Shown: piece by piece, positions 12,533 to 54,904 of the stretch | Numbering within the stretch: position 1 is the first letter of the stretch | Layout of the letters: every line of letters starts with the position of its first letter | Source: Euglena gracilis | Taxonomy: Eukaryota | Direction: 5' to 3' | Assembly (NCBI GenBank): GCA_039621445.1 | Contig: CP154954.1 | Coordinates: 28,576,417 to 28,640,416, forward strand | Length of the DNA: 64,000 nt | Made by a program: the position numbers and the translations under genes | The notes under the pieces: generated by a model | The model's input: the letters and a program-made list of their open reading frames with translations, nothing else | Told to the model about the DNA's origin: nothing | Database searches by the model: none

Positions 12533-13324
12533 TGTTCACCGGGTCCGCCCCCCCCGGGCCGCCGGTCGCCCCCGCGACCGCCGAGTCCCTTCGGGCCGAG
12601 GGCCCCGGGGGGTCCTCGCCGGTGGGGAGGACCACCGACAGGGGGGTGGTGTTTCCGGGGTGGGGCCTGCGCTTTCTCCGGGGGTTGGTGGGCTCAAGTC
12701 AACCCCTGTTTTTTCACCCAGGTGGTTTCCCCAACCCCAGCCGGTGCGTAGGATCGTTTTTTTAGCGGTTTCCGAAATTTTGCTCAAAATCGAAAAATCT
12801 GCCATTTGCATTGCAAATCTCACTTCTCTCTCTCACACACACACCTTGATGGCAAACCAACCCAAAGACCAACCACAAACCAACCCACTTTGGGACTTTG
12901 AGACCTTGGATTGAGAAACCGAAACTGTGAAATGTCCAAATGGAATGTGACAAACCTGGGGTAAGGAGTGGTCGTCGGGGGTGAAAGCGGAGGCGAAGGT
13001 GAAGATATAGGAGGGTGGGCGGTGGTGTTAAAGGCTCCTTCAATTCAATTGACTTCAATGAATCAATGACCAACAATGAAACTCAACCTGCCACTCCAAA
13101 TCAAAGTCCAATTGCCAAATTCAATACAATAGTATTCCTTCTTGCCAAATATTGGGGAAAACCCCTCAAGTTCTGTGAAAAATGACAAATTTGAAAGCGC
13201 AAACTAATTTGACCCGCTTCCAATTTAAGTCGCGGGTTTTTTTAACTGGTTGGCTGTTACCCGCGACTTTGAAATTTGCGCTTTCTGGCAATTTTTGGCT
13301 GCCGGCGAAAGCCGGCGGCCGACA
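12533..13324 (-). repeat. 3' LTR of Gypsy-1
   Basis: Direct repeat of 23838-24633. Confidence 0.95.
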
Positions 13325-13335
13325 CCCCCTCCCTT
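13325..13335 (-). promoter_or_regulatory. Polypurine tract of Gypsy-1
   Basis: AAGGGAGGGGG immediately before the 3' LTR on the minus strand. Confidence 0.85.
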
Positions 13336-13644
13336 GCGACCTTAGTCGGTCACCAAAAATTCGCCCCCCCCCCCGTTCCTCAACAACGGGGGGGAAATCC
13401 TCCATTCGGCACTCTTTCATCCAAAGCCTATGTCCCACACCCATTCTTCCTTGAATCAACAAATGGGAAACAAACTTCAGGGACTATGGCTTTCAAGTGC
13501 CTTCAAACCTTTGGGAAAAACTTGTTTCACCAAACAATGAATATTAGGCTGCCCCCCCCCCCCCGCTTCTCACGGGTGGAATGAGGGTCTTCACCAAGAT
13601 CTGCCCCCCCCTTCCAACGGTTCGGGGGACTTTTGGTAAAAATT

Positions 13645-13980
13645 CGGTTGGCGCCCCCCTCCCCCTCGGGTCGGGGGATTTTTGGTTCAAATTCGTCAAG
13701 CCCCCCCCCCCTCCTCGGGCCGGGGGGATTTTTGTCCAAAAATCAAACGCCCCCCCCCCCTCCTCGGGCCGGGGGGCTTTTGGTCAAAAATTCAAGCGCC
13801 CCCCCCCTCCTCGGGCCGGGGGGATTTTTGTCCAAGAATCAAACGCCCCCCCCCCCTCCTCGGGCCGGGGGGATTTTTGTCCAAGAATCAAACGCCCCCC
13901 CCCTCCTCGGGCCGGGGGGATTTTTGTCAAAAATTCAAGCGCCCCCCCCCCTCCTCGGGCCGGGGGGATGTTTGTCAAAC
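13645..13980. repeat. ~47-bp GC-rich tandem repeat (6-7 copies) in the Gypsy-1 3' non-coding region
   Basis: Unit approximately gcccccccc-ctcctcgggccggggggatttttgtccaaaaatcaaac. Confidence 0.9.
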
Positions 13981-14409
13981 CGAAGGGGGGCGCATTATGT
14001 GACCATGGACTCCCAACCACATCATCCACATATCCGATGCTTTGAAAAGGAATCCTTACAACACCACCATATGGGACGTGACGGCAATGTGGGGTAAGGT
14101 GTAAAGGCAGCGGGGTAAGGTAGAGGGAGGGAAGGGAGACAGCGGACGGCAATATAGCGTGCAGCGAATATACGGTGGTGCCCCGGCCCCCTTGCGGGGC
14201 CTTTTTCTACCTTTCTCCATTCTTACATTCTCAAATGCTTGCCTTTGTACATTCTTCCTTTCTCACACCCGTGCGCATGTGCGCACAAACACACACGGAC
14301 GTGCAAAGCCGGCTTTTGAATTTTTGATGTTGGGTTAAAAACAGCACTTTGCCTTCCCACTTGGCTCGCCGTAGAGCCTTTGACAGGGCCTTATGGCTCA
14401 CCTTAGAGC

Positions 14410-16389
14410 CTACGGCCCACCGTCAATTTTAAGTTCGGACATTATGTCCATTTTCACTTTTTTCTCACGGCAATATTTCACAAACTCCCCACTGAAACGG
14501 TGAATGAAATTTCCAGCCGGTTCCCAGGTCTCCTCCCAGTCCTCATATCCGACCCACTTGGTCAAAAATTCCCATTTTCCATCTTTTCCTTTCCGGTGCT
14601 TTAGAATTTTTTCCACCTCCCACTTATCAGGTAATGCCTCTTCTTCTTTTTCGGTCCGTTTATAGTAAAAAAGAGGCACCCCCTTACCTTCAACTTGGGG
14701 TTCCCGATACTCCTTCAAAAAACTCCTATGAGCTTTTGTCTCCACCCCAGATTTCATCTCAATTACATAACTCCGTTCCCCTTCTCTACCCTTCACGACC
14801 CCAGGTCCCACCCACCTAGAGTCAAGCTTCTCACCCGACCCTTCGGGTCTCCTATACCAAACCGTCGTCCCCACCTTTAGGGGTTCCATTTCTTTCCTCC
14901 CCTTATTTATCCTTGCCACCTCCTCCTCATGCTTTTTGTTGAGTATCCTAGCCACCCTCCCATCAATGTCTTGCATCCTTCGGAAAAACTCCACCGAATC
15001 CTCACATTCTTTGGGTGGTTGGTAGGGTACCCCTGCCAATGGTCTTTCCCTTCCAGTCACAATTTCATATGGGCTCAATCCGCTTTCCCCTTTTACGTCA
15101 TGAATTCGGTCCAAAACGTGGGGTAAAGCTTCAACCCAATTAATTTTTTCCTCCACATACAATTTTCTCAACACCTCCATTACCTGTTGTCCGGTTCTCT
15201 CAACCCTCCCGTTTGCTTGGTGGTGGTATGCTTGGGAATACGCTTGCCTAATCCCCAAAAGCGCACACATGTTTTTCCACCAAGTGCTTGTGAAATGGCT
15301 CCCTTGGTCACTTGAGATGACCGAGGGAACCCCAAAAGGCCTCCACTGATTTTTCACCATTTCCTTAGCCAACTTGGCACCGGTTAATCCCTTGTCCTTG
15401 CATGCAACCCCCACAATCCAACCCGAATGCCTATCCACACAAAGGGCTAGGGTGTCGTACTCCCCCCCATCGTGTAAAACCCTTGGCATTCGAAACAATT
15501 CGATTGCAACACTTGTCATTAGTGCATGGGGTATGGGTGTTGACTCGATCGGTCCTTTCAAACTCTCCCCCCTCACACTCGCTTGGCATGTGGAACAATT
15601 TTTGCTGCAATTTTGGTTGAGTTGCTTTGCAGCCTTTTCATCAGCCCAAACAAAACGGATTGTCATGTGTTTCCAAACTTTTTCAGGGCCAACGTGCCCC
15701 AAAAACTCGTGATTTTCTTGAATCACCAAGGGTTGGAAACTTTCAGGCACACACAACTTTTCCTCGAAAAACAGTTGACCGTTCAAGACTTTATAGCTTT
15801 TGGGCCAAACTGAACCACCTTTGGTAGCCTCCCATTTTTCTTTCCATGTGGGGCATCGAGAATATGCTTCCCCCCAATCACGCTCCCATACGGGCTTAAT
15901 ATCCTTAGGGGTCGTACTTGGCAGGGCGTCCCCCACTTCCATACGAGTGTCCCCCCTCGAACTTTCAGCCGTCTCCGGGACAGGGGTCGTCTCCCCCCCC
16001 ACTTTCTCATCCCAAAAATGAACTCGTTTCTTTTCTTTCCTGGGCCCTTGTGAGTGGGTGTCCACAGGGGTGTCTTTTCCTCCTGGGTCTACCCCACCCT
16101 CGGTTCCCCTCCTTGTGCACTCTCCTTTTTCCTCCTCAGGTGTTACGTTTTTGCCACTACGGGTTGTCACCCCCCGTATCCAGGCATTACGTAAATTGGG
16201 CTGGTTTTTGATTCTTATCTCCAAACACTGTTTTTCCTCTTCTTTTTCCTCCCGGATAAAATTTTCCATTTCATCCTTGTCTTCGGCTGACCCGTGCTTA
16301 CTTATGTCCCTTAGGGCCTGTGAAGCTGGGTATGCCCACCGACTAAGGATATCGGCTATGGTGTTTTCTTTACCCAGGATATATCCCAC
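14410..16389 (-). CDS. RNase H C-terminus, linker, integrase and chromodomain
   Basis: GKENTIADILSR; HEFLGH..CSTC (HHCC); SSDQGSHF..ANGRVER; WVGP; WEVEKILKHR..EFLTKWVGYEDWEETWEP. Confidence 0.95.
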   Translation of the reverse strand: MGYILGKENTIADILSRWAYPASQALRDISKHGSAEDKDEMENFIREEKEEEKQCLEIRIKNQPNLRNAWIRGVTTRSGKNVTPEEEKGECTRRGTEGGVDPGGKDTPVDTHSQGPRKEKKRVHFWDEKVGGETTPVPETAESSRGDTRMEVGDALPSTTPKDIKPVWERDWGEAYSRCPTWKEKWEATKGGSVWPKSYKVLNGQLFFEEKLCVPESFQPLVIQENHEFLGHVGPEKVWKHMTIRFVWADEKAAKQLNQNCSKNCSTCQASVRGESLKGPIESTPIPHALMTSVAIELFRMPRVLHDGGEYDTLALCVDRHSGWIVGVACKDKGLTGAKLAKEMVKNQWRPFGVPSVISSDQGSHFTSTWWKNMCALLGIRQAYSQAYHHQANGRVERTGQQVMEVLRKLYVEEKINWVEALPHVLDRIHDVKGESGLSPYEIVTGRERPLAGVPYQPPKECEDSVEFFRRMQDIDGRVARILNKKHEEEVARINKGRKEMEPLKVGTTVWYRRPEGSGEKLDSRWVGPGVVKGREGERSYVIEMKSGVETKAHRSFLKEYREPQVEGKGVPLFYYKRTEKEEEALPDKWEVEKILKHRKGKDGKWEFLTKWVGYEDWEETWEPAGNFIHRFSGEFVKYCREKKVKMDIMSELKIDGGP

Positions 16390-18168
16390 CGCAAATCATA
16401 CTTGGAGAAAATTTGGTGCCATCTCGCCCTCCTCCCAACCGGACCACTGGGGGTGTCTAGGACTTCCCTTGTCCAAGACTCCAAACTTTGGTGGTCGGTT
16501 AAAACCAAAACGGGTTGCAATCCAATCCAACTCTCCCATTTTTGTAGTGCCAAAATTATGGCGTACGTCTCCAACTCCCTGGGGGTCCATTTTCTTTGCC
16601 CCTCGGTCAATTTTCGAGACATAAAAGCCACTGGCACAGTTTTTTTTCTCAATCACATCCTGGGCTGTGGGTCTTCCTCCCCCCTCCTTCATTTGCTCTA
16701 ACGTTGCCCCCACGGCGTACCCACTGGCATCAACCCTTAGCACAAAGGGTTTATCTGGGTCTACCCGTTGCAACATTAGGCCCGAACACAACCTTTTTTT
16801 CAGCTCCTCAAAAGCTTTTAAATCCTCCCCATCAAATTCCACAGGTTTTCGACTTCCTTTCTTTCCCACCTCCCTGGGGACTTTCAACTTGTCTTGCAAT
16901 TGGGCAGCTACTTCCGCATACATGTGAATGTATGCATTGTAATAATTTGTGAATCCCAAAAAGGCTCTCAAAGCCGTAATTGTTTTTGGAACCTCCCACT
17001 TTTCGATCGCTCGTAACTTACCCGGTGCAGGCCTCCTAGTCCCGTTTCCTAAAATCTGTCCACAAAATTCGACCTCCTCAACGAAAAGTTTGGCTTTGAA
17101 TTCATCAGCCACCAAAAGTTCTGTTTTCAGCACCTCCAACACCCTCCTCAAATCTTTTTCGTGTGCCCCCACCAGGTCCTCCCCTTCCCCGACCGTTGTC
17201 CCCACCAGTATATCATCTATGTACCCTGTGGCGATATCCCTTACTGGTGTCAAACGGTCGTCGATCATTTGCTGAAATTGCTGGGGGGCATTTGTCAAAC
17301 CCATTACATTCACCCTCCACTGAAAAATGCCTTTGGGGGTGAAACAACACGTTATGGGTCGACTTTCTGGGTGTAAAGGTTGTTGGTGAAAAGCTTGCTT
17401 CAAATCGATGATCGAAAACATTTGGTTTGCACCATGTTTGACCAAAATGTCTTCAATTTTGGGTAGGGGGTAGTTGCATCGCCTTGTTTGGCTGTTTGGG
17501 CCCCTGAGGTCCACCACCCCCCTCCAAGGAAAATCGTTGGATTTTTTTGGAACTGGAAAAGTCTGGGACAGCCATTCTGAATTTTTGGCTGTGGCTGGCT
17601 CAATGTATTTTTTGTCAAGCCAGTCTTGTGTGATTTTTTCAAGTGCCTCTTTCCGCTCACCGTGCATGAAAAAAGGCTTCTGTCTGGATGGTTTTGCCCC
17701 CTCCTTCAGCGGTATGTATGCATAACCATATTGTCCTCTTTCGGGGGGGTCTGGAAATGGCGATGACCGAAATACCGTCCCCCTGTAATCTTGCAAAACT
17801 TGTTCCCTCAACTTAACCACCCGTTCCTCCTCTTTTTTGTCCTCCCCCTCCCTTGCAATTATCATTCGGTTGATAACTTGCACCGGGGGGTCACTTCCCT
17901 CCAAATTTGTGGCAACCTCCCCCAGGTCCTCATCGCTCAAAAATTGAAATTCCTGGTCCAACCCTTCCAAAGGCAAACAAAGACCAAGTTTTTGCAACCC
18001 AAACGAAGACCCGTCCGCCACAGTCACATTGTCCACTGAAAAATTTGTGTCATCCCTGAATTTTTGCGGACCCCACCGTCTTTCAACACCCCGCAAAAAA
18101 ATCAGGTCGGGGCTGTCTTTCACCAACGCCTTGTGGTGTGGAAAAATTCCCAATTTTGCTTCTGCCAA
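16356..18168 (-). CDS. Gypsy reverse transcriptase and RNase H (frameshifts near 16645 and 16390)
   Basis: WRGVVDLRGPN, IDLKQAFHQ, MGLTNAP, YIDDIL, FLGFTNYY, VDASGYAVGATL; RELETYAII..TDHQSL in ORF 16356..16652. Confidence 0.95.
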
Positions 18169-18558
18169 CCATGGATAAGAAAGAATGGCATCAACTTTAA
18201 TGTTTGCCTCATAAAATTAAAATTCGTATTCCACACACTCAATTTCCCTTTCCTCATTCCAGTTTTGTTGAAGGATCATTTTCACCTTTGCACATCTGCT
18301 CCCCCCCGCCAAAGTTTGCCCATTGGCAGTTTCAAACCTTAACGGGTCCTTAGCAGGATACATTAGGTGGTCCCCTATCAACCCTTGTCGAATGAGGTTT
18401 GCCTCCGCCCCCGTGTCAATCAAAATTCTGGCCGTTTTTTCCTCCCCATTTGCCAACTTGATCTGGGTTTTTAACAGCAGTTGTCTGTCCTCCCCAAGTT
18501 TCTTCGATCCTCCCCGAGTTTTCGTCCCCCTCAACATTCTTTTTTTCAGCCGCACCAA
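18169..18558 (-). CDS. Aspartic protease (one in-frame TAA at 18217-18219)
   Basis: ILIDTGAEANLI; DAILSYPW follows the stop in the same frame as RT. Confidence 0.9.
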
Positions 18559-18594
18559 TTTTTTCTTCCCTGGGGTTGCCCCCCCCTGGGAGGG

Positions 18595-20271
18595 TTACCT
18601 TCTATCGATCAACAAGGCCCACACCCCCCAACGGGTACCCCTCAAAATCCTCCCATCAGCCTCAAACAACTTTGTCCCCTTGGGAAAATAAATCTTTTTG
18701 ACAGCCATAGCCACCAGATTTTTCACCCACCTCCTATTCCAGTCTGGGCATATGCAAATCGCCCGACAATTGGAATTTTGCAATTTTTCAGCCACCTCAG
18801 GCCACAAAGTCCAGGGGGGGTTCATCCACAACGTTTCCTCCGCCCCCCAATCCTTTTTCATGGCATCATCATCCTCCCCGTAAAACTTTTCACACCTGGT
18901 ATTTTGGCTGGTTGCAAAACAATCCCGTTCCGCCTTAACCCGAAATTCCTTCTCAATTTCCTCCATACAAACTTTCCTAACAGCATAATCCTCCCTACGA
19001 TATCCGCTTTTTCGTTCCAACACGGTTAACAAATACTCCACCAGTTGTTTGGGCATCCTCCATTTTTTCTGGGTGCCAACTGTCATTCCATATCCTCCCA
19101 ACTTTTCTCGGTGACTCCTCCCTCCAGGAATCAAATTCGGGCAGGTCTGGCCATCACAAAGTTTGCTTTGTAGCTTGCTCAGATTTTCGCTCCCCCAGAT
19201 TCGGGTGGGCTTTTGATATCCCCAATCTGAAAACTGACAATAATCAACATCGACAAAAGTCAGATTTTGAACACAGGGTCTTTTCCGCAAAAGTCCATGA
19301 CGGGGATTTTCAATCCACCACAATTTTGGCTTGAAATATTCGACAATCTCCAAAGTTTTTTTGACCAGCCGATCTGCCCCCTCCAAATTTCTGACTCCCA
19401 ATGTTTTGGCCAAGCTATATTCTGTACAGGGCACCCCCGCAGCGATGATCTGAAAATATCCGGGGGGGTACCTCCAATATCTCCACTCCAAAATATTTGT
19501 ACAGTGGGTTGGGTTAAATCTGGGGTTTATGTCCACTGACACAACCTTAAACCCCTGCTCTCTCAGGCAATCCCCAACCGAGCCTTTACCGCAAAAAAGG
19601 TCTAAAGCTCTTTTCTTTACGGAAGGCTGTGCACGATCCCTTATGGGATCTGATTTTTTACAGATTTGGGCCGAGTCACAGATTTGCACGTCACGCACAC
19701 ACACACCCGACACACTGGACACACCTTGTGCAGAGCTCTCCTGGGATGGCAGATTTTTCATCGTGGTTTCACTCGCACGAGAGTTTTCTTGCCACCTGGG
19801 ATTTGCGTAGGTCAAGTCAAGTGGAGTATACGCGAGAAGGAAACCTACGCAATCGTGCTTATACTCCAGAAATTCCGCAGCTGGGTTTCCTTTCCCCCTT
19901 CCTTTGCCTTTGCCTTTTCCACCGTCCTGGCCCTTTCCCCTAGACCAGTCATTTCCATTGTTTCCTTTCCCCCAAGAATTTTTTCCTTTGCCCTTTCCTT
20001 TGCCTTTGCCTTTGCCACCACCAGACTGTGAATCAAAATTCTGTTGATTTGAGTTCCACCACTGATTTCCCTGAAAATTGGCATTGGCATTGGAATTCCA
20101 CCCAGAATCGTTTCTCCATCCACCCCCATTGCCAAATTGAGATTGCTGGGGGGGTGGCAATGACTGTGATCGAACCACTGGCACTGGATTTTGCACGGGG
20201 GGGTTCACGTTTGCATTGGTCGCAGGAGCTGCCACCTGTGAATCTGATTTTCCAACGGACGGTTTTGCCAC
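18595..20271 (-). CDS. Gag C-terminal GK-rich tail fused to C5-cytosine DNA methyltransferase (~19027-19611) and N6-adenine-type methyltransferase (~18598-18995)
   Basis: C5: ALDLFCGKG (I), VDI (II), GVPC (IV), IENP (VI), QKPTRIW (VIII-like). N6: DCFA..N..DAM..W..WMNPPW..ICPDW. Confidence 0.9.
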   Translation of the reverse strand: MAKPSVGKSDSQVAAPATNANVNPPVQNPVPVVRSQSLPPPQQSQFGNGGGWRNDSGWNSNANANFQGNQWWNSNQQNFDSQSGGGKGKGKGKGKGKNSWGKGNNGNDWSRGKGQDGGKGKGKGRGKGNPAAEFLEYKHDCVGFLLAYTPLDLTYANPRWQENSRASETTMKNLPSQESSAQGVSSVSGVCVRDVQICDSAQICKKSDPIRDRAQPSVKKRALDLFCGKGSVGDCLREQGFKVVSVDINPRFNPTHCTNILEWRYWRYPPGYFQIIAAGVPCTEYSLAKTLGVRNLEGADRLVKKTLEIVEYFKPKLWWIENPRHGLLRKRPCVQNLTFVDVDYCQFSDWGYQKPTRIWGSENLSKLQSKLCDGQTCPNLIPGGRSHREKLGGYGMTVGTQKKWRMPKQLVEYLLTVLERKSGYRREDYAVRKVCMEEIEKEFRVKAERDCFATSQNTRCEKFYGEDDDAMKKDWGAEETLWMNPPWTLWPEVAEKLQNSNCRAICICPDWNRRWVKNLVAMAVKKIYFPKGTKLFEADGRILRGTRWGVWALLIDRR

Positions 20272-23200
20272 CGTTTCGACCCCTTGGCTGACCGTGTTGG
20301 GGAGGGTGTCCTGGACCCCTTGGCCCGATCTGCCTTAGCAGACCTGGCCCTCCGGTTTCCAAATGCATTTGGCTCCCTGGAACTGTGTATCATGTCTTGA
20401 GAATCCCTGGAAGACAATTTTCGCTCAACAAAACGGAAAATTTCTTCAACTCCCATTTTTGGCTGTTCCTCCACAATTTTGATCCTTTTATCCGTGCCTG
20501 TGATTGGTTTCCCACTGACCTCTTTCAGTTTGTCGCAAATCGTAGTGTTGGGCAAAAAGACTTCGAACTCCAGCGGTGAAACTTTCGAAACCTTGCAGGG
20601 CTTTTCCCCAGTGACACGTTCCACAGCACAAATAATGTTTTCCTCGGTTGCAGGCACTCCAGGGTACATTTTGACTTTCGGTCCACATGTTGATTTCCTT
20701 TCCTCCTCATCGGCGACCCAATGCAAAATGAAATTTGGCAGTTTTCCCTTGACCAGTCTTTCTGCCTCATCGTCAGTGGCGCTTTTCACCTGTCTCCAGG
20801 CTATTCTGAAATTTATGACAAAATCTCGCCATTCCTGTACGGTAATTTTCCCTTGGTTCACGAGGTTCACATCATACCATTTTTTTCTGGCACACTCGGA
20901 TTGAGTTCCAGCATATTTCCCCTCAAGCCTGTCAAATTCCTCCTCGAAAGATGTTTTTCCGTTCAATTCCAGTCGGAATTGCAATTCCTTTTTATTTGTG
21001 TCGTCCAGCGTCATTGCAAAAAGCTGAAGCTTGAGTGAATCAGACATATGTCCATTTTGCAAAATAACCAACGTCCTGAAATATTGATCCCAATCCCGCA
21101 CAAAGGACGACCAGTCTTTTGGCTGTCCAGAAAAATTTGGAGCTACCAGGTTTTTCATCAATTGATGCGTTGCCACTGCATTTGATGAAACCAGCCCTGC
21201 ACCTGCAGGCACTGCCCCCACAGGTCGTGCACAAACCTGCCTGACATGTGTCGCATGTGATCCTGGTTCAGCGTATTCATAACCCTCAATTTTAACCGGA
21301 TTTTTCTCAATCGCAGGTAAATCGTTGTAACCAAAAAGATCAAACTCCTCGATTTCTGAATTTCCAGCTGATTTTTCTCCCGTTTCCTTTGTCAGATCCA
21401 CCGTCGCAGATTTGGCAGATTCAGCTTGCTGATTTTTCATCACCAAAAACTCAGCGTGAAATAAATCCAGCTTTTGTTGCAATTTTTTCCGCTCCTGCTG
21501 TTCTTTTCGAAGTTCAACGCACTGCTGTTGCAGTAAAACTCCAACCTGCTGTTTCATCGAGTTTTCCATTTCAGCCCGAACTTTTTCAAACTGCCCCTCC
21601 CTTTCACTCAGCCTCAACCTTTCCTGCAACATTTCACTGATAATGACCTCCAAATTCTTTCTCGTTTGCAGCCCCAACTCCCTTTGCACCTCCAACCGAA
21701 TTGTTTCCTCACTCTTGTTAATCAGGTCACAGACTTTCTCAATGGGAAAATCTTTCCGACCCAGAAAATTCTCCAACCTCCCCAAACGATCATTCAGAGC
21801 TTTGCTCTCTCGCTCCAGGGACTGTGAAAATTCCTTCAATTTCTCAGCCTGTGCCTGAAAATTGGCACACTCAGTCTCCCCCAAACCTTTGCATTGCTGA
21901 AAAATGATCCCAAAACGTCCCTCCAGATCAGAGCTTAGCTCACCAACTGCAGATTTGACCTGATTAACAGCAATTTCCTGCTGTTTTTCCTTCTCCCCCA
22001 CTTGTTGCACCACCATGTGCATCTCCCCCACAGATTTTTCCAAAAACGACAGCTTCTGAGAAAAATCCCTCTCATTTTTTCTCAACCCCTCAACCTGGGC
22101 CTCAAAAAACGTGTTTACTCCATCCTCCACTTTCTTCACTTTTTCAGCAAACTGCCGTTCCATTTCCACACTCAACAAATGCCTTTGGCATTGGGCCAGA
22201 TTTTGCACCATTTCACCATTTTTCTGAAACTGCAAAAGCAAGTCGTTTACGGTTGAACTCAGTTCAGCCTGAATTTCACGTTTCACCATGGCAATGTGAT
22301 CAGCCACTCGCTGATCATGCATGCCCAATGCCTCATTGACCAGATTCAATGCCTGCCCATTTGACATGGCCAATGCCTGATTTAGCCTGTTTTCTGCCTC
22401 ACCCACCAGAATTTCAGCCATTTTTTCAGGATTTTTTCCTTCCTGCACCAAAAGCCTGCCATGTAAACATTCAATTTTACAACTGATTTCTTCACCCCAA
22501 TTGTTCCAATCATCATCAGATTGGCCATAGCCCGATTCCATTTCCACATCATGCTGATTTTCAGGGTTTTCGGACCCAGTTTCTGCAGAAAAACTAGTAT
22601 TTGGCTGTAAATTTTGTGGCTGGGTCTGTGAAAAATCTGGCTGAATTGGTCGAAAAACCTGGGCTGGGCCTGTGTTTGAAGACATTGTTAACGTTGGCTG
22701 AAAAACCTGCCCACTCATCTGGGATGGCCCCATGATTGCTGGAACAGATGACCCAGCCGAAAACTGCTGGGCTGGCTGAAAAACCTGTGAAGTCATCTGG
22801 GCTGGCCCCATGATTGCTGAAACAGATGACCCAGCCGAAAACTGCTGGGCTGGCTGAAAAACCTGTGAAGTCATCTGGGCTGGCCCCATGATTGCTGAAA
22901 CAGATGACTCAGCCGAAAACTGCTGAGCTGGCTGAAAAACCTGCAGCTGGGCTGCAGCTGGCTGTGCTGACTGCGTTTCTGAACTCTGTGTTAACAGCAA
23001 TGGTTCTGGCTGGGCTGTTAAACACAAAATTTTTTGTTCTGGCCCTGGGCTGCTGTCTCGTGACGACACAGAAATTCGCTGAAAACCTGAAAAATTTACT
23101 GGCCACATGCCAGCAGCTTTCATCCTTTGCATAACCATTTGCTGAATAATTGCGTTTTCAGCCTGTTTTTCTTCCTCTGTTTCGCTTTCATAAGCTGGGG

Positions 23201-23774
23201 GGTCTGATTCGTCGTCACTGCCATGCAGTGGAATCAGCTGTAAATTTTCTGGCCCTGCCACTGTGATGGGCCTTATGCATGTAATTAACCCCCTCTCCGA
23301 ATCAGAATCAGATTCTGATTCCTGTGTCGATTCTGAAAATCCTGAAGCCGATAAAGTTTCTGCAGCCTGAAAATTGTTTTCTGCCACAGATTCCATCATG
23401 ATTTGCAATGATGCCACAGGTTCTGAAAACTGGGCTGCAGAAAATTCAGTTTCCTTTTCGTTCTGAAAACAGCTTTCTGCCAAAGATCTCAGAAAATTTT
23501 CATCACAACCTGAAATTCGGACAGATCGGCCGGGAAACGAGCAGATTTCTGCAGATTCTTGTGAAAATTCACAGACCACTGGGTTGGTGAAACTGTCCTC
23601 GTGTACCATTCTGCTGGCACAGCCACCAGAACAAATCTCTGTGACCGTGTCGACCGTCTCTGAAAAATTTTCTTCTGACTGGGTCTGTGAAACAACCTTT
23701 GCTTGTGATGTCAGCCGAATCTGAAAACTTTGCACTGATTCTGCTGGCTGAGCCAGCGGAACAAATCTCAGCAA
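20205..23774 (-). CDS. Large Gag-like protein (26-aa repeats, coiled coil, capsid-like region)
   Basis: Position after PBS; APNFSGQPKDWSSFVRDWDQY; 78-bp repeats at ~22695-22940. True start probably the ATG at the LTR/PBS junction. Confidence 0.8.
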   Translation of the reverse strand: MLRFVPLAQPAESVQSFQIRLTSQAKVVSQTQSEENFSETVDTVTEICSGGCASRMVHEDSFTNPVVCEFSQESAEICSFPGRSVRISGCDENFLRSLAESCFQNEKETEFSAAQFSEPVASLQIMMESVAENNFQAAETLSASGFSESTQESESDSDSERGLITCIRPITVAGPENLQLIPLHGSDDESDPPAYESETEEEKQAENAIIQQMVMQRMKAAGMWPVNFSGFQRISVSSRDSSPGPEQKILCLTAQPEPLLLTQSSETQSAQPAAAQLQVFQPAQQFSAESSVSAIMGPAQMTSQVFQPAQQFSAGSSVSAIMGPAQMTSQVFQPAQQFSAGSSVPAIMGPSQMSGQVFQPTLTMSSNTGPAQVFRPIQPDFSQTQPQNLQPNTSFSAETGSENPENQHDVEMESGYGQSDDDWNNWGEEISCKIECLHGRLLVQEGKNPEKMAEILVGEAENRLNQALAMSNGQALNLVNEALGMHDQRVADHIAMVKREIQAELSSTVNDLLLQFQKNGEMVQNLAQCQRHLLSVEMERQFAEKVKKVEDGVNTFFEAQVEGLRKNERDFSQKLSFLEKSVGEMHMVVQQVGEKEKQQEIAVNQVKSAVGELSSDLEGRFGIIFQQCKGLGETECANFQAQAEKLKEFSQSLERESKALNDRLGRLENFLGRKDFPIEKVCDLINKSEETIRLEVQRELGLQTRKNLEVIISEMLQERLRLSEREGQFEKVRAEMENSMKQQVGVLLQQQCVELRKEQQERKKLQQKLDLFHAEFLVMKNQQAESAKSATVDLTKETGEKSAGNSEIEEFDLFGYNDLPAIEKNPVKIEGYEYAEPGSHATHVRQVCARPVGAVPAGAGLVSSNAVATHQLMKNLVAPNFSGQPKDWSSFVRDWDQYFRTLVILQNGHMSDSLKLQLFAMTLDDTNKKELQFRLELNGKTSFEEEFDRLEGKYAGTQSECARKKWYDVNLVNQGKITVQEWRDFVINFRIAWRQVKSATDDEAERLVKGKLPNFILHWVADEEERKSTCGPKVKMYPGVPATEENIICAVERVTGEKPCKVSKVSPLEFEVFLPNTTICDKLKEVSGKPITGTDKRIKIVEEQPKMGVEEIFRFVERKLSSRDSQDMIHSSREPNAFGNRRARSAKADRAKGSRTPSPTRSAKGSKRWQNRPLENQIHRWQLLRPMQT

Positions 23775-23824
23775 TAACGTTCACCGAATCTGAAAAAACC
23801 TCACTGACGAAGTCAGTGAGCCGA

Positions 23825-23837
23825 CCTCTGCTAACCA
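23825..23837 (-). promoter_or_regulatory. Primer-binding site, tRNA-iMet-like with one extra base
   Basis: TGGTTAGCAGAGG directly after the 5' LTR. Confidence 0.75.
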
Positions 23838-24633
23838 TGTTCACCGGCCCCACCCCCTGAGCGCCGCCGGTCGCCCCCGCGACCGGCGAGTCCCGGTGGG
23901 CCGAGGGCCCGGGGGGGTCCTCGCCGTCGTGGCAAACCACCGACAGCCGGGGGGTGGGTGTTTCCGGGGAGGGGCCTGCGCTTTCTCCGGGGGTTGGTGG
24001 GCTCAAGTCAACCCCCGTTTTTTCACCCAGGTGGTTTCCCCAACCCCAGCCGGTGCGTAGGATCGTTTTTTTAGCGGTTTCCGAAATTTTGCTCAAAATC
24101 GAAAAATCTGCCATTTGCATTGCAAATCTCACTTCTCTCTCTCACACACACACCTTGATGGCAAACCAACCCAAAGACCAACCACAAACCAACCCACTTT
24201 GGGACTTTGAGACCTTGGATTGAGAAACCGAAACTGTGAAATGTCCAAATGGAATGTGACAAACCTGGGGTAAGGAGTGGTCGTCGGGGGTGAAAGCGGA
24301 GGCGAAGGTGAAGATATAGGAGGGTGGGCGGTGGTGTTAAAGGCTCCTTCAATTCAATTGACTTCAATGAATCAATGACCAACAATGAAACTCAACCTGC
24401 CACTCCAAATCAAAGTCCAATTGCCAAATTCAATACAATAGTATTCCTTCTTGCCAAATATTGGGGAAAACCCCTCAAGTTCTGTGAAAAATGACAAATT
24501 TGAAAGCGCAAACTAATTTGACCCGCTTCCAATTTAAGTCGCGGGTTTTTTTAACTGGTTGGCTGTTACCCGCGACTTTGAAATTTGCGCTTTCTGGCAA
24601 TTTTTGGCTGCCGGCGAAAGCCGGCGGCCGACA
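23838..24633 (-). repeat. 5' LTR of Gypsy-1
   Basis: Direct repeat of 12533-13324. Confidence 0.95.
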
Positions 24634-28486: not shown

Positions 28487-31400
28487 TAAGGTAAGGAGGT
28501 CAGCAAATAGTTCGCACACGCCCCCCATGCCGGAGGACGCGGCGCCACAGGCACAGGACGAAACGGCATCACACCACAAAACAAAATGGCCTTACTGTTT
28601 TTCAAGCACCGATGTTCAACACGAACTGTCCACAAAAAGGTTCAGAACGACAAATGTCAACACAGAGGAAGGTAAAATAGGTTACTTCCGACTTTCACCG
28701 TGGTCCCTTCGCTTCGTGGTTGGCTTGCCATTCAAAGAAAGCAATCAAAGGTTAGACAACAATCCACCCATGGCGAGGAGGGTTGGTGTCTCCTGAGCCG
28801 AAAAACCATCCAAAAGGCCCCCCTGGGGGGCATGACTTTCCTCCCGCGTGACTGAAATCATGATCAAAACATTTGGGGGAAGGCCAGGCTGTCTCTTGAT
28901 ATGCCAACCGCCATTCACATTCTACAACGTTGCCACACATTCCCATGTGCCTGGTGTAGGATCGATTGTAAAGTGTGATCCACGCAATAATTCTTGAAAA
29001 CCTCATTCATTCTGCCTCCTGGTTGCACAAACGAAGCCACAGGCTCCCATGTACTGCTGCTTGCCAGAGAATTCTCCAACCAAACCAAAAATTTCCATCC
29101 CCCTTGGCACTTCTGCTTCAACATCTTGTAAACATTGTATAAACCCAGTTGTGCTTGTTATCCTTCTGACATCCGAAGGGAGGGTCCCCTCCCTGGTCTG
29201 GCATGGGGGTGTCACCCTCCACTGGGTCTCCCACAACCACATCACCGGTCAAAAGGCCTGGATCTTCTTCCAAAAGATTTTCTTCATTCAAAGCAATCTC
29301 CCACTTTTTGTACAAACCGAAAGAAACTTCAATGACCCCTCCCAAAGGTGCACTGCTTGCAATTTGCACTGAATTGAACCTCGATTTGAGAACTCGCCTG
29401 GGGGGGGGAAGCTTGGGCCATGATTTGTTTGGCCATCTTTTGTTGTGAACCAAAACACAGTCATCTTCTTGTATTTTTGCTAGTACCCTCCCTTTGTTGG
29501 CAATCTCAAAATCTTTTTTTCTCAATTCTTTCAATCTCTGGGAAAGTCTGTCTTGAATTTCAATTTGGGTCAAAAGCCAGGAATGGGTTTCTGGGTTTGT
29601 CACCGGTTCTGGGGGTAATTCAAACCTTCAAGCTGGTGTTCCTAAAAACATTTCATGGGGTGACAACATTGTTGTGCGGGAAATATGTGAATTCATCAAA
29701 AATGTACAATAGGGAATCAGTTGAACCTAATTTTTGTCCTTGGAAGGAGGGCTCAAAGCTCTCATGTTCTGCAAAAACATTTTGTTGACATTTTCAACCA
29801 AACCGTTTGAACTGGTGTTCCGGGGTAGCGAAAACGATAATTTCACGTCTAGAGCTTGAAACACTGTCGGGTAAAAACCACTGAGCTGTCTGAATGGCAC
29901 GTCGTTGTCAGACCTCACAACGGACGGTATTCCAAAAACATAAATCCACCGGTCTAAAATAAGCCTCAAAACACCTTCTCCAGTTACCGTTTTCTGTGTG
30001 GGGATGAATTGGCAAAAATGGGACAAATTGTCGACCAAAATAAGCACGTAGTCAAAACCATTGTAGGGGTCCATTTGCACAAAGTCCGAACACAAAACTT
30101 CATTGCTCACTGTTGGAATCAGTAAAGAACCCACCTTTCCTTGGTCACTGGGGCGGTTTTGTTTTGAAAGGGTGCAAATTTCACAGGTCATCACAGTGGC
30201 CTTGCAAATTTCCAGCATGTCTTTCTTGGAAACCTCGGACTGAAAATGACTCTTAGAAACAACACTGTCCTTTCAGCACCAACATGGTTGCTTGCCTTGT
30301 GACATTCATCCAACGAACCTTCAACAAATGAGACGGAACAACCAACTTTCCTTGACAGTACCTGGCCTTTTCAGGTCTGGACCGAACTCGTTGTCGATGT
30401 AACAGGGTTTTGAAACCTCCACTTTTTCCCACAATCCTTCAGCTCTGAATTCAAATAATCCTTTTCTGACACTTGCACTCTGTGGTACAAACTGAAAATC
30501 TTTTGCAAAAACAGGTCAAGCTGCACATCCATTTTCTGAAAAGCATTCCTTGCTTCTTCCTCAAAACGAATTTCAAATTTGTTGTCAAAATCAGCACGAG
30601 ACAAAAAATCACACAATTCATTTTTGCAACCTGCCACATGAACGATATTCAGTTTGAACTGGTGCAAAAACACATACATCCTTCTCAGCCTTTTGTTGAG
30701 GTGGGGTTCACCCTTTAGAAAAGAGGTGGCTGCCTCATTGTCCGTCATCCACACAATTGGCAGATTTTGCAAAATCCTTGTTTGTGAAGCAATGGTCGGC
30801 TCACCACTCAAAATTTCCTTTTCCCAGGTGGCGTATTTTTCTCTCGCCTCACTCCATTTCCAGTTCTAGTGTCCCAAGGGCACCAACCTCATTTCACTGG
30901 GGTAATTGTTTTTCAGGGTCCCATCCACCTTCACACCACTTGTTCTCAAATTCTCAGGAATTTGTGTTTGTTGGAGATTTTGCCACTGAAACAAAGCAGA
31001 ACCACCCCCAAATCCGAACTGTCAGTCACCAAAACAATCTCTCCTGAACTCCTGGGGGTACCCAAAACATCAAGGGATGATAATTTCCTTTTCAAAGCAT
31101 TCAAACAACTCTCCTCCTTTTCAGTCCACCTCCCTTTCACATTCTTTTTCAGAAGATCTGTCAGTGGGGCTGAGTCAAAGTAAAACCTTTTACGTGTCTG
31201 CGGTAGAAATTCATGGCTCCCAAAATTCGCCTCTAATCCCTTTTATTCTGAACTCGAAAACTCAGAATTGGTTCAGTGTGAGTCATGGCCAGTTTCCCCC
31301 CCCCAGGACCCCCCAGGACCCCACCCCCCCAGGACCCCACCCCCCCAGGACCCCCCCAGTACCCCCCCAGGACCCCCCCACGACCCCCCAGCACCCCCCC

Positions 31401-34400
31401 CGGACCCCCCCAGGACCCCCCCAGGACCCCCCCAGGCCCCCCCAGGACCCCCCCAACCCCCCCCAGGACCCCCCCAGGACCCCCCCAGGACCCCCCCAGG
31501 CCCCCCCCAGGACCCCCCCAGGACCCCCCCAGGACCCCCCCAGGACCACCTCAGGACCCCCAGCGAGTCCTACCAAAACCAAATCAAAAGAAACTAACAA
31601 AACCCCTGTTTCACGACAGGCTGACCCTGTGTAGGGTGGACGGGTGATGACTCATTTGGGACGCACAGCCATTCTCCAATTCATACGTTGCAGTGTGCCG
31701 CACTCGTGCTGCTTGTCGTCGTTGAACTCAGCTTCCACTGGCAAGCAGCGCGCCATGAACATCACACACCATGAGTGGTGGTGCTATTGTTCGTGGACCA
31801 CCCGTCCGGGACAAGGCTGTCACGAGGCCTCGACAGCATGGCCTCGCCCGCCTCCTCCACAAACACGCTGCCGGACAGCCGGGACATCCAGTCCTGCCAC
31901 CCCAGCAGGGCCAAGGAGATGGTTCGCTGGTACTACGACGGCGGTCTTCCGGGACTGATCAGTCGCTCCAGGTGCATCAGCTCCCGTGGATCCGGAGCAT
32001 AGCTTGGAGGTGCCCCCATCCCCGTCCGGTTTTGAACCCGTGTCCCTCGCATGGGCACCGCAGCCGGGGACCACTTGGCCAGGGGGCGGGGGCAATGGTT
32101 GTATGTGCCGTTCACTCCCCTTTCCGCCCCGGGCGGCGGTGGTGCCGTGCTTGTTGCGTCAGAAAGTAAGCAGGCCAGAAAACTCAGCTTAATCATAATC
32201 CGGGTCCCGGCTGTTGCGGCAGACCCGTGCGAATTCGGCCTGGAAGCCCTCCCGGCCCGCCCGTCTGACCACCTTGGTCCCGGCAGGACAGGTGCCGAGA
32301 CAGAAGAAACACCACTCCTCGGCGTCGCACAGGCCCCGCCACACGCCACAGTACCCACTGACCGTGGAGTTCCGGGCGCCTTCGGCGCCCGCTACCGGGG
32401 GGGGCTCCCGCCCCCCCCGGACCCCCCCAGGCTTCAAAAAAACCTCATTGTGCAGCAAAATTTTTGCCAAAAAGGAGCAGGACCGCCCCCCAACAACCCA
32501 CGGATGCTCACTCTGGCCCCGGGAGGGCAGGTGCCGAGTAAGGCAGAGAAAACACCACTCCTCGGCGTCGCACGTGCCCCCCCGCACGCCACAGTACCCA
32601 CTGACCGTGGAGTTCCGCGCGCCTTCGGCGCCCGCTACCGGGCGGGGCTCCCCCCCCCCCCCCCGCCCCCCCGGGTTTCAAAATAACCTCATATTGTCCT
32701 GCAAAATTTTTGCCAAAAAGTAGCAGGACACCCACAGGGACCACCCCATGACCATCCCAGGACCCCCCCAACACCCCCCCAGGACCCCCCCAAGACCCCC
32801 CCCAGGACCCCCCCAACGCCCCCCCAGGACCCCCCCAGGACCCCCCAGGACCCCCCCAACGCCCCCCCAGGACCCCCCCAGGACCCCCCCAGGACCACCC
32901 CAGGCCCCCCCCCACCCCCCCCCAGGACCCCCCCCAGGACTCCCCCAGGACCCCCCCAGGACCCCCCCAGGACCCCCCCAGGACCCCCCAGGACTGAGTC
33001 CTGGGGGGGAAAACTGGCCATAAGTGTTCAGTGTTCCTCTTGTTTGCCTGCCACATTCCCCATCCCAACGAGAATTCCAAGTAGTCAATAGTCTGATTCA
33101 GAAAAGAACATTTGCTCAATTTGATTCTCACTTGGTTCTTTCTGCAAACTTCAAACCTCTTTTCCAAAAGATGCAAATGGTCCTCCTCAGAGTTTGCACG
33201 AACCCCTGTGTCATCAAAAAAAGAAGCCAGGTGTCCATCTTTCAAAATCTCTCTTACCCTCAAATCCGTTTTGCACTGGGAGGTTAGGATTTCCATCAAC
33301 TCCTGAAAGATCCCTGGGGCATTCATCAACCCAAACATCATATTTTTGGACGAAAACACCTCCCTGAAGGAATGCAAAATGCAGACAAATTTGCTGATCT
33401 TTTTGTGATTGGGATTTGCTAATACCCACTCCTCATGTCCAGGGTACTTTTAAACCGACACTTGGCCAAACTTTCAATCAGAATTTCCATGTTTGGCAAA
33501 AAACCTGCATGTGCTTTGCTTCTGGAATTCAATTTTCCATAATTAATGACCATCGTTCTGGTACTTGACCCTTTTTTGTCCACCAAAAATGTGGGGCTGC
33601 ACACCTGGGGAATTTCACCAAAGGGGAATTGCTCAATCAACCCTGACTTTAGCAATTCTTCACACTGAAGGTCTAATTCTTTTTCATCCTCCTGGGGCAT
33701 GTGCCAACACTTTTGCCTTAGGTGTTTCCCTTCCCATTCAGGTTTCAGCTCAATGTCCATCAAAACAGGCAGGGGGGAAGACTCACAAATTGTGGGCAAT
33801 CGTCCAAAAACATCAGAAAGGTTCACCAAAAGCTCATACAAGATGGGGTGGTCTCTGACTTTCTCAACTTCCTTCTCAAATTATCCACTCAGATTCTCAG
33901 TAAACATTTTGCTGCCTTTTTCATCAGCCTTTTTCTGAGCCTCCAAAGTCCAAATCTTTCATGTAAAACTTGGGAAATGCTTTTGAGTTCATCCATCTTG
34001 ATTGTTGCCTTGAGATTCTTCACAGGTTTTGCAAACCGAACATCTTCCACAGGCTGGGACAGCTCACCTCCACATCTTTTCTCACCTCCTGAAAAAGACT
34101 TAGCTCACTTTCAATGTCCTTTGTCAATTCAGCAAAAAATTGATGTTTTCATGCTCACTCATCGGTTCAAACACCGCCACCACCACGTTGTCCAACGATT
34201 CTTTCACCTTTTTTTCTGATTCCGTGGGGGGAACACTCTCCAAAGGAAAACTTGGACTTTCAAAAACTTGCTTGTCTGCAGGTGGTTTGGCAGGTTGGTG
34301 TGCCTGCTGCTGCTGGGGGACGTCGGGAACCTCTGGGAAGTCAAATTGAATTTCATCCTCCACTGTGGGGTGCTTCCTGATCTCACCTCTCAGTTCATCC

Positions 34401-54798: not shown

Positions 54799-54904
54799 TG
54801 GGGCAGCCAGGGGAAGGTACCCCAGTGATGGGGCCTGTGGACTCCCCAGACACATTACACCCAGGGGTGCCCCCATTCAGGGCCCTGCAGGCCAGCATTC
54901 ACCA

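What the first reader, a model, noticed from the sequence alone, without database searches (positions are those of the whole stretch)
18595..19611. Chromodomain Gypsy element encodes a tandem cytosine + adenine DNA methyltransferase
Seen: one open frame between gag and protease holds a C5-MTase (LDLFCGKG, catalytic PC 19426-19431, ENP 19303-19311, QKPTRIW) followed directly by an amino-MTase (DCFA, NPPW 18811-18822, PDW). The integrase of the same element ends in a chromodomain, and the LTRs are nearly identical, so the insertion is young. Known: C5-MTases occur in dinoflagellate and charophyte retrotransposons, and Dam-like domains in DIRS. I do not know of a tandem C5+N6 module in an LTR element, or in euglenids. 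Inference: the particle could pre-mark its cDNA with two modifications while the chromodomain reads chromatin.
Basis: partly seen in the sequence, partly recalled or inferred. Interest (0 to 1): 0.92.

Follow-up and report, generated by a model that had tools for sequence, protein, structure and literature searches.

The report
Euglena retrotransposon with two DNA methyltransferases
This is a broken copy of a jumping gene that carries both a cytosine and an adenine methyltransferase plus a chromatin-reading domain, a real and unusual design that a May 2026 preprint already described in Euglena gracilis as "EpiLTRs".

Summary
On the minus strand, one open frame (18598-20334) upstream of the protease holds a C5-cytosine methyltransferase domain followed directly by a Dam-like N6-adenine methyltransferase domain. 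Every motif sits at the stated coordinates. Pfam, high-confidence AlphaFold models and fold searches support both folds. The catalytic residues are almost invariant across about 280 (C5) and 65 (Dam) relatives.

The host element is a 12.1-kb chromodomain Ty3/Gypsy LTR retrotransposon (12533-24633).

- **The copy is defective.** It has two premature TAA stops and a pair of frameshifts in RNase H. Its LTRs are 96.8% alike overall, with the differences packed into the last ~135 nt.
- **The architecture is in print.** bioRxiv 10.64898/2026.05.21.726589 describes Euglena gracilis LTR elements with chromodomain + DAM + DNMT and calls them "EpiLTRs". A protein labelled EG_transcript_113 matches the window's Dam part at 99% and continues without breaks through protease, RT, RNase H, integrase and chromodomain.

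Three things are not in the preprint's main text:
- relatives are common in metagenomes;
- they occur in two domain orders, DNMT→Dam→PR and PR→Dam→DNMT;
- the closest solved fold to the Dam-like domain is the RNA cap adenosine methyltransferase PCIF1.

Enzymatic activity and substrate remain untested.

The parts
23838..24633 (-). 5' LTR (796 nt), starts TG and ends CA
23821..23837 (-). putative primer-binding site, starts TGG directly after the LTR
   Evidence: read directly from the sequence; the matching tRNA was not identified
20205..23780 (-). gag-like ORF (1191 aa stop to stop, first ATG at 23609, ends TGA). No Pfam hit. Holds 3.2 copies of a 78-nt repeat at 22695-22943
20205..20334 (-). 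gag/pol overlap; pol is in the -1 frame. One extra G in the G-run at 20280-20283, seen in part of the family, would fuse gag and pol into one ORF
19855..20025 (-). Gly/Lys-rich basic tract upstream of the methyltransferases (approximate bounds). No CCHC zinc knuckle seen
   Evidence: bounds worked out by hand
19015..19617 (-). C5-cytosine methyltransferase domain (about 200 aa): motif I FCGKG, motif IV PC, motif VI ENP, motif VIII QKPTR, short Cys/His-containing recognition loop, C-terminal RMPxxLVxYLL helix
18598..18987 (-). Dam-like N6-adenine methyltransferase domain (about 130 aa): DCFA, NPPW, PDW
18595..18597 (-). premature TAA. Nearly all family contigs in four runs read CAA (Gln) here
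18085..18594 (-). aspartic protease (DTGA), interrupted by TAA at 18217-18219. Relatives read Glu there
17053..17550 (-). reverse transcriptase core (RVT_1)
16156..16830 (-). RNase H, out of frame between about 16640 (1 nt extra in an A-run) and about 16391 (1 nt missing)
15223..15750 (-). integrase: H2C2 zinc domain and DDE core (rve)
14506..14622 (-). chromodomain at the C-terminus of the integrase
13654..13979 (.). 49/96-nt tandem repeats in the 3' untranslated part of the element
13325..13335 (-). polypurine tract AAGGGAGGGGG directly before the 3' LTR
12533..13324 (-). 3' LTR (792 nt)

Best explanation
Window 12533-24633 (minus strand) is one defective genomic copy of a very high-copy chromoviral Ty3/Gypsy LTR retrotransposon, most likely of Euglena gracilis. 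It belongs to the kind recently named EpiLTR. Its order is LTR, PBS, long gag, a Gly/Lys-rich basic tract, a minimal C5-cytosine methyltransferase, a minimal Dam-like N6-adenine methyltransferase, protease, RT, RNase H, integrase, chromodomain, PPT, LTR. Shown here: both methyltransferase domains are encoded in the pol frame, fold confidently, and keep the SAM-binding and catalytic motifs that are almost invariant in the family. Inferred: in intact family members the two enzymes are made as part of Gag-Pol, so they are packaged with the RNA. They then methylate the element's own nucleic acid, namely newly made cDNA or the fresh insertion, at C5 of cytosine and N6 of adenine, while the chromodomain steers integration to marked chromatin. 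In a genome where the preprint reports 5mC as the near-default state at CG and 6mA as marking a promoter subset, this would let a new copy set its own epigenetic state. This particular copy cannot make pol products beyond the Dam domain, because of stops and frameshifts.
For: Domain calls: Pfam Dam, DNA_methylase, aspartic protease, RVT_1, RNase H, rve and Chromo in one frame. AlphaFold of the 351-aa module: mean pLDDT 92.6; Dam domain alone: 94.4. Foldseek: DNMT1, DNMT3A and M.HhaI at E 6.5e-8 to 1e-7, probability 1.0, over 163-185 alignment columns. Dam model: adenine-N6 methyltransferases on top, with PCIF1 Z 10.5, ErmE 9.0, T4 Dam 9.0 and EcoDam 8.6. Motif conservation among the retrieved relatives: catalytic Cys 279 of 282, Glu of ENP 285 of 288, Arg of motif VIII 267 of 278, Gly of motif I 234 of 237; Dam Asp 66 of 67, Phe 68 of 68, Asn 64 of 65, and the two Pro 66 of 66 and 64 of 66. 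The same collinear architecture occurs as an intact 1804-aa ORF at 60.6% identity over 1802 columns (P0244), and also in P0247 and P0248. 30 of the 301 proteins held (the window's own included) show DNMT then Dam. P0267 (eukprot:EG_transcript_113) is 99% identical over the Dam part and reads through both stop positions and the RNase H region. LTRs with TG..CA ends, a TGG-starting PBS and a PPT. Copy number: 47,361 contigs of run X1 laid at 90% likeness or more. Of the 34 best-supported differences between this copy and the family in the pol frame, 21 are synonymous against 27% expected, p = 2.4e-5. Prior description of the architecture in E. gracilis, with 6mA enrichment on DAM-LTR insertions.
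Against: No activity data exist for either domain of this family. The preprint's E. coli assays of other eukaryotic DAMs showed no rise in 6mA. The DNA_methylase Pfam score sits at the threshold (21.8 vs 22 on the ORF), and only the N-terminal third of the Pfam model is matched. Motif VIII is QKPTR rather than QxRxR, and no canonical motif X (GN) is present. The Dam domain reaches 37.7 bits against the 97.05 cut-off of the phage equivalog TIGR01712. Within the methyltransferase part alone, only 4 of 7 differences are synonymous (p = 0.09). The preprint reports low or undetectable LTR expression in E. gracilis.
Confidence: 0.85

Rival explanations
1. The Dam-like domain is not a DNA 6mA writer. 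Either it methylates RNA (cap-adjacent or internal adenosine of the element's transcript) or the RNA:DNA hybrid made during reverse transcription, or it only binds the transcript, as proposed for DIRS1 methyltransferase domains placed in the PCIF1 clade.
For: The best structural match by both methods is PCIF1/CAPAM, the cap-specific adenosine methyltransferase: Foldseek E 1.8e-4, TMq 0.61; VIA Z 10.5, rmsd 3.0, 130 residues aligned, 1.5 above the next row. rRNA adenine methyltransferases (ErmE, DIMT1, KsgA) rank beside T4 and E. coli Dam. Iyer et al. 2016 (PMC4738411, passages read) place DIRS1 MTase domains in the PCIF1 clade and call them likely inactive. The preprint's E. coli DNA assays were negative, and its authors themselves suggest a DNA-RNA hybrid substrate.
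Against: By sequence the domain belongs to phage-type Dam PF05869 in 19 of 21 members (best E 1.6e-13). PCIF1_WW matches 3 of 21 (best E 0.0081) and MethyltransfD12 5 of 21. NPP and DxF are almost invariant, which argues against an inactive binder. The preprint reports 6mA enrichment on DAM-LTR insertions, including in E. gracilis. No PF05869 member showed up among solved structures, so the fold ranking may be biased.
Confidence: 0.2
2. The tandem is an artefact: a nested insertion, a chimeric assembly, or a chance juxtaposition private to this copy.
For: The preprint warns of nested insertions and assembly artefacts among E. gracilis DAM-LTRs. The window is crowded with other retroelements.
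Against: There is one continuous frame with no break between the two domains. Collinear intact polyproteins from independent metagenome contigs have the same order (P0244, P0247, P0248). 30 of the 301 proteins held (the window's own included) have this order. Contigs of four sequencing runs cover the domain junction at 95-99% likeness (table 8: records 12 and 30).
Confidence: 0.02
3. The in-frame TAA codons are read as sense, or read through, in this organism, so the copy is functional.
For: Both in-frame stops between the methyltransferases and RT are TAA, and gag ends with TGA.
Against: At 18597 practically all family contigs in four runs read the base that gives CAA. Relatives have Gln at the first site and Glu at the second. 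These are ordinary nonsense substitutions at conserved sense codons. The RNase H frameshifts break the frame regardless.
Confidence: 0.03

Closest known systems
EpiLTRs of Euglena gracilis (Fernandez-Moreno et al., bioRxiv 10.64898/2026.05.21.726589, May 2026; abstract and sections 7-10 read in full, passages elsewhere)
   Same: An LTR retrotransposon that combines a chromodomain, a DAM adenine methyltransferase and a DNMT cytosine methyltransferase. Same presumed host. NPP catalytic triplet conserved.
   Different: Nothing essential; the window holds a defective copy. The preprint's main text does not contain the words protease, gag, metagenom- or PCIF1. The position between gag and protease, the environmental spread, the two domain orders and the PCIF1 fold match may therefore be additions. 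Its figures and supplements could not be seen and may show some of this.
Cymbomonas tetramitiformis EpiLTR (same preprint)
   Same: Chromovirus-like element with DAM + DNMT + chromodomain. The preprint reports its DNMT as monophyletic with the Euglena one.
   Different: There the DNMT is appended to the 3' end of pol. Here both methyltransferases lie upstream of the protease.
DNMT-bearing retrotransposons of Symbiodiniaceae and charophytes (de Mendoza et al. 2018, PMC5890265; search listing and passages seen)
   Same: A C5 methyltransferase encoded inside a retrotransposon polyprotein, and the idea that new copies are methylated by their own enzyme.
   Different: No adenine methyltransferase. 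The words chromodomain and Euglena do not occur in that text. The 2026 preprint calls the DNMT acquisitions distinct.
DIRS elements with a Dam-like/PCIF1-like methyltransferase (Iyer et al. 2016, PMC4738411; passages seen)
   Same: A small adenine-methyltransferase domain inside a retroelement polyprotein.
   Different: DIRS elements use a tyrosine recombinase. This element has a DDE integrase and ordinary LTRs. The DIRS1 copies were judged likely inactive, whereas here the catalytic motif is conserved.
Chromoviruses (chromodomain Ty3/Gypsy elements)
   Same: PR-RT-RNase H-IN order, chromodomain at the integrase C-terminus, LTRs with TG..CA ends.
   Different: About 350 extra residues of two methyltransferases before the protease; an unusually long gag; a Gly/Lys-rich tract where a zinc knuckle would be expected.

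Membership tests
Ty3/Gypsy chromovirus | Direct LTRs with TG..CA ends, a PBS after the 5' LTR and a PPT before the 3' LTR | tested here: met
Ty3/Gypsy chromovirus | Domain order PR-RT-RNase H-IN, with a chromodomain at the integrase C-terminus | tested here: met
   collinear with P0244
Ty3/Gypsy chromovirus | Target-site duplication | tested here: inconclusive
   Both flanks are G-runs (GGGGG), so a 5-nt duplication fits but cannot be told from low complexity
C5 DNA methyltransferase (PF00145) | Pfam gathering score | tested here: inconclusive
   21.8 bits vs 22 on the 579-aa ORF; 23.1 vs 22 on the 351-aa segment; 16 of 20 relatives match
C5 DNA methyltransferase (PF00145) | Motif I (FxGxG), motif IV (PC) and motif VI (ENV-type Glu) | tested here: met
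   FCGKG, PC and ENP at the stated coordinates, almost invariant in the family. Motif names are recalled from the literature.
C5 DNA methyltransferase (PF00145) | Motif VIII (QxRxR), target-recognition domain, motifs IX and X | tested here: inconclusive
   QKPTR keeps the last Arg (267 of 278). Only Pfam model positions 3-118 of 324 are matched. There is a short loop and a C-terminal helix instead of a full recognition domain.
C5 DNA methyltransferase (PF00145) | Fold of solved DNA C5 methyltransferases | tested here: met
   DNMT1, DNMT3A/B and M.HhaI, probability 1.0, E about 1e-7
C5 DNA methyltransferase (PF00145) | Methyl transfer to cytosine C5 in DNA | not testable with these tools
   needs an enzyme assay or methylome data
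Dam, phage-type N6-adenine methyltransferase (PF05869) | Pfam gathering score | tested here: met
   40.3-44.6 bits vs 28.1; 19 of 21 relatives
Dam, phage-type N6-adenine methyltransferase (PF05869) | NPP[YFW] catalytic motif and DxFA motif | tested here: met
   NPPW and DCFA; N, P, P invariant in 21 sequences; 64 of 65, 66 of 66 and 64 of 66
Phage N-6-adenine-methyltransferase equivalog (TIGR01712) | NCBIfam equivalog cut-off | tested here: not met
   37.7 bits vs 97.05; only model positions 30-71 of 165 matched
EpiLTR (as defined in the 2026 preprint) | An LTR retrotransposon that encodes DAM, DNMT and a chromodomain together | tested here: met
   definition read
EpiLTR (as defined in the 2026 preprint) | DNMT sister to the DNMT4 clade | not tested
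   No reference DNMT set was at hand. The weak top PDB sequence hit is DIM2 (E 0.1).
DIRS retrotransposon | Tyrosine recombinase instead of a DDE integrase | tested here: not met
   rve and Integrase_H2C2 found, no tyrosine recombinase
PCIF1/CAPAM clade | Sequence membership (PF12237) | tested here: inconclusive
   3 of 21 relatives at E 0.0081 or worse, and not the window's own domain. The fold match is the best of all solved chains.

The most novel reading that the evidence does not exclude
The DNMT+Dam cassette is not a curiosity of two algae. It is a widespread module, shuffled in order, in chromoviruses of many uncultured protists, with two main lineages of opposite orientation around the protease. 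Its 'Dam' half is a PCIF1-fold enzyme that marks the element's RNA or the RNA:DNA replication intermediate rather than duplex DNA. That would explain the negative E. coli assays.
Probability: 0.15. Interest if true: 0.6.

Novelty: already known. Interest (0 to 1): 0.3.

Why it matters
A mobile element that carries writers for both eukaryotic DNA methyl marks plus a histone-mark reader could set its own epigenetic state at birth. That bears on how transposons survive in heavily methylated genomes. The design is real, conserved and abundant, but it has been described. What remains open, and is testable with this family, is whether the two enzymes are active, on which nucleic acid, and why two domain orders persist.

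Tried and rejected
- **Own-genome search.** No genome is held for this window, so genomic copies could not be collected and no per-copy dN/dS was possible.
- **Metagenome locus scan.** It returned only 5 loci, all DNMT-only at 48-57% identity. These are useless for dN/dS.
- **Rfam on the whole window.** 0 matches.
- **PDB by sequence.** Only weak hits: best E 0.1 to DIM2. The Dam profile gave nothing meaningful.
- **Earlier scan notes.** None found.
- **Sequencing-run search.** The organism names were coded, so it did not name the host.
- **TAA reassignment.** Considered and rejected (see rivals).
- **Programmed -1 frameshift at the gag/pol overlap.** Considered. I found no canonical slippery heptamer by eye. 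A G-run length difference at 20279 fuses the frames in 26-29% of DNA contig depth and in all contigs of the two runs flagged RNA or RNA? that cover the site. Relatives such as P0247 start just before the DNMT, while P0152 has about 600 residues upstream in the same ORF. The question is left open.
- **Second TAA in the laid contigs.** The state of 18217-18219 was not among the 40 of 557 differences printed. It rests on P0267 and P0003 only.
Full report
**Anatomy**

The feature lies on the minus strand. Stop-to-stop ORFs and Pfam give, from high to low coordinates:
- a 1191-aa gag-like ORF (20205-23780) with no Pfam hit;
- a 579-aa ORF in the -1 frame (18598-20334);
- then, in that same frame, an aspartic protease (18220-18594), RT plus part of RNase H (16399-18216), and integrase with H2C2 and rve domains ending in a chromodomain (14413-16395; Chromo E 2.4e-9).

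LTRs of 796 and 792 nt lie at 24633-23838 and 13324-12533. They start TG and end CA. The 5' LTR is followed by a TGG-starting primer-binding site. The 3' LTR is preceded by the purine run AAGGGAGGGGG. Both outer flanks are G-runs, so a 5-nt target duplication is possible but not provable. The element is 12,101 nt long.

**The two methyltransferases**

The 579-aa ORF begins with a Gly/Lys-rich tract. It then holds a DNA_methylase match (aa 243-351) and a Dam match (aa 457-509).

On the 351-aa segment P0001:
- Dam scores 42.4 bits against a cut-off of 28.1;
- DNA_methylase scores 23.1 bits against 22;
- NCBIfam gives the phage N6A methylase model and the dcm superfamily as the top two hits, both far below their cut-offs.

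AlphaFold with 47 aligned relatives gives mean pLDDT 92.6. Foldseek against the PDB returns DNMT1, DNMT3A/B, M.HhaI, DIM2 and MET1 at probability 1.0 and E about 1e-7, over 163-195 columns. The first domain is therefore a compact C5 methyltransferase of about 200 residues with a very short recognition loop.

The Dam part folded alone gives pLDDT 94.4 and pTM 0.89. By Foldseek it matches PCIF1/CAPAM best (E 1.8e-4, TMq 0.61), then KsgA, DIMT1, ErmC' and METTL16. An all-against-representatives search gives PCIF1 Z 10.5 (rmsd 3.0, 130 residues aligned), ErmE 9.0, T4 Dam 9.0, DIMT1 8.8 and E. coli Dam 8.6. The fold is that of adenine-N6 methyltransferases; it does not decide between DNA and RNA as substrate.

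By sequence the family is phage-type Dam. PF05869 matches 19 of 21 members, MethyltransfD12 matches 5 of 21, and PCIF1_WW matches 3 of 21 at E 0.0081 or worse.

**Is it more than one odd copy?**

A word-indexed search found 207 proteins of 193-615 aa with E ≤ 1e-3, many carrying both Pfam families. The exhaustive HMMER search found 3748 cluster representatives at E ≤ 1e-3 and 261 at E ≤ 1e-30. The search among longer proteins found 62, including full polyproteins.

P0244, P0247 and P0248 show DNMT, Dam, RT, RNase H, integrase and chromodomain in the window's order. P0244 is collinear with the window at 60.6% identity over 1802 columns.

When all retrieved proteins are aligned to P0001, the catalytic residues are almost invariant:

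| Domain | Residue | Conserved |
|---|---|---|
| C5 | Cys of PC | 279 of 282 |
| C5 | Glu of ENP | 285 of 288 |
| C5 | Arg of motif VIII | 267 of 278 |
| C5 | Gly of motif I | 234 of 237 |
| Dam | Asp of DxFA | 66 of 67 |
| Dam | Phe of DxFA | 68 of 68 |
| Dam | Asn of NPP | 64 of 65 |
| Dam | first Pro of NPP | 66 of 66 |
| Dam | second Pro of NPP | 64 of 66 |

This is the pattern expected of working enzymes.

**Host and expression**

No tool names the organism. P0267, labelled eukprot:EG_transcript_113 (1540 aa), is 99% identical to the window over the Dam part. It continues through protease, RT, RNase H, integrase and chromodomain without a break. In a single frame it is 91.7% identical to window 18966-14413, a figure that includes the frame-shifted stretch. 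I read EG as Euglena gracilis from memory of that transcriptome's naming, and this fits the preprint.

Nineteen sequencing runs of one coded organism hold at least half of the sampled words. One leaf-litter metatranscriptome holds 0.44. Laid on the element, run X1 alone gives 47,361 contigs at 90% likeness or more, so the family is very abundant. Contigs from the RNA library X20 and the probable RNA run X15 cover the methyltransferase region at 98-99% (table 8). An RNA library can carry DNA, so this is only a hint of transcription. The preprint reports low or undetectable LTR expression in E. gracilis.

**State of this copy**

- **First TAA, 18595-18597.** At 18597 practically all family contigs in four runs read the base that makes the codon CAA. 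P0267 and P0003 have Gln there.
- **Second TAA, 18217-18219.** This site corresponds to Glu in P0267 and P0003.
- **RNase H frameshifts.** RNase H is out of frame between an extra base in an A-run near 16640 and a missing base near 16391. The repaired states are seen in 56-69% and 42-50% of DNA contig depth respectively. If those depth shares can be trusted, many other copies share these two defects, which suggests a defective subfamily that spreads with proteins supplied by intact copies.
- **gag/pol junction.** A fifth G at 20279, which would fuse gag and pol, is present in 26-29% of DNA depth.
- **LTRs.** They are 96.8% identical overall. They differ at one position in the first ~660 nt and at about 20 positions in the last ~135 nt. 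I cannot explain this clustering.
- **Synonymous excess.** Of the 34 best-supported differences between this copy and the family in the pol frame, 21 are synonymous, against 27% expected (p = 2.4e-5). In the methyltransferase part alone it is 4 of 7 (p = 0.09). The 34 are the pol-frame rows among the 40 differences that the tool printed out of 557.

**Prior art**

A full-text search found bioRxiv 10.64898/2026.05.21.726589 (22 May 2026). I read its abstract, sections 7 to 10 and passages elsewhere. It reports the following:
- DAM domains occur in LTR retrotransposons of several eukaryotes.
[quoted passage not shown] These, with Cymbomonas elements, are named EpiLTRs.
- The EpiLTR DNMTs form a clade sister to DNMT4.
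- The NPP triplet is conserved.
- Tested eukaryotic DAMs did not raise 6mA in E. coli.
- DAM-LTR insertions are more often 6mA-methylated, including in E. gracilis.

The term EpiLTR occurs in this sense in only one of the two library papers that hold it.

Two older papers bear on the rest. De Mendoza et al. 2018 (PMC5890265, passages) covers DNMTs in dinoflagellate and charophyte elements and mentions Dam-like domains in DIRS. Iyer et al. 2016 (PMC4738411, passages) place DIRS1 methyltransferase domains in the PCIF1 clade and consider them probably inactive.

**What may go beyond the preprint's main text**

The words protease, gag, metagenom- and PCIF1 do not occur in the preprint's main text. 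Its figures and supplements were not visible and may cover some of this.

1. **Breadth.** Relatives are abundant in metagenomes.
2. **Two orders.** Of the 301 proteins held, the window's own included, 30 have DNMT before Dam, 29 have Dam before DNMT, 5 have DNMT only with at least 200 flanking residues, 8 have Dam only or a fragment, and 229 are too short to tell. P0256 is an intact 1896-aa ORF with PR, Dam, DNMT, RT, RNase H, IN and chromodomain.
3. **Order tracks lineage.** A quick maximum-likelihood tree was built from 47 complete DNMT domains; 17 of the 64 classified proteins were dropped for incomplete domains. The order labels need 9 changes, against a shuffled mean of 18.9 (as low in 0 of 200 shuffles). 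One clade holds 20 DNMT-first rows plus 2 DNMT-only rows (SH-aLRT 94). Another holds 14 Dam-first rows plus 1 DNMT-first row (SH-aLRT 89). The window sits in a starred set of 14 DNMT-first rows (97). Kin share labels, so this shows clustering, not the number of rearrangements.
4. **PCIF1 fold match.** PCIF1 is the closest solved fold to the Dam-like domain. This keeps an RNA or hybrid substrate open.

**Verdict**

The element is a defective member of an already described kind. The mechanism remains inference.

Noticed in passing
window 44542-49010 (+): A second retroelement with protease followed directly by a Dam-like stretch (45031-45780, 26% identical to P0012), then RT (46730-47056) and integrase (48516-49010). 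No C5 methyltransferase was detected, so this looks like a DAM-LTR without DNMT.
   Followed up: partly
window 54773-56782 (+): An ORF with RVT_1 followed about 250 residues later by a weak Dam match (E 0.0011). P0001's Dam part hits 56300-56731 at 26% identity. The order RT then Dam resembles DIRS-like elements.
   Followed up: partly
window 12533-12670 and 23838-23975: Nearly all differences between the two LTRs lie in their last ~135 nt, while the first ~660 nt differ at one base. Uniform decay does not explain this. Gene conversion, recombination with another copy, or error in a GC-rich stretch are possible.
   Followed up: no
window about 16391 and about 16640: The two compensating RNase H frameshifts appear to be shared by a large part of the family's contig depth in two DNA runs. 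This suggests a defective subfamily that amplified with proteins supplied in trans. Depth sums over contigs are a rough measure.
   Followed up: partly
P0122: A 719-aa Dam-then-DNMT relative is filed at NCBI as a hypothetical protein of the carnivorous plant Genlisea aurea. This may be DNA of a trapped protist in that assembly rather than a plant gene.
   Followed up: no
window 22695-22943 and 13654-13979: There are 3.2 copies of a 78-nt repeat inside gag (26-aa units, 95% matches). A 49/96-nt tandem array lies in the 3' untranslated part, between the chromodomain stop and the polypurine tract.
   Followed up: no
window 29484-30245 (-), 32511-33754 (-), 510-2762 (-): Further integrase-like and RT-like fragments. 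The window is largely a patchwork of retroelements, with CpG observed/expected 0.53 overall.
   Followed up: partly
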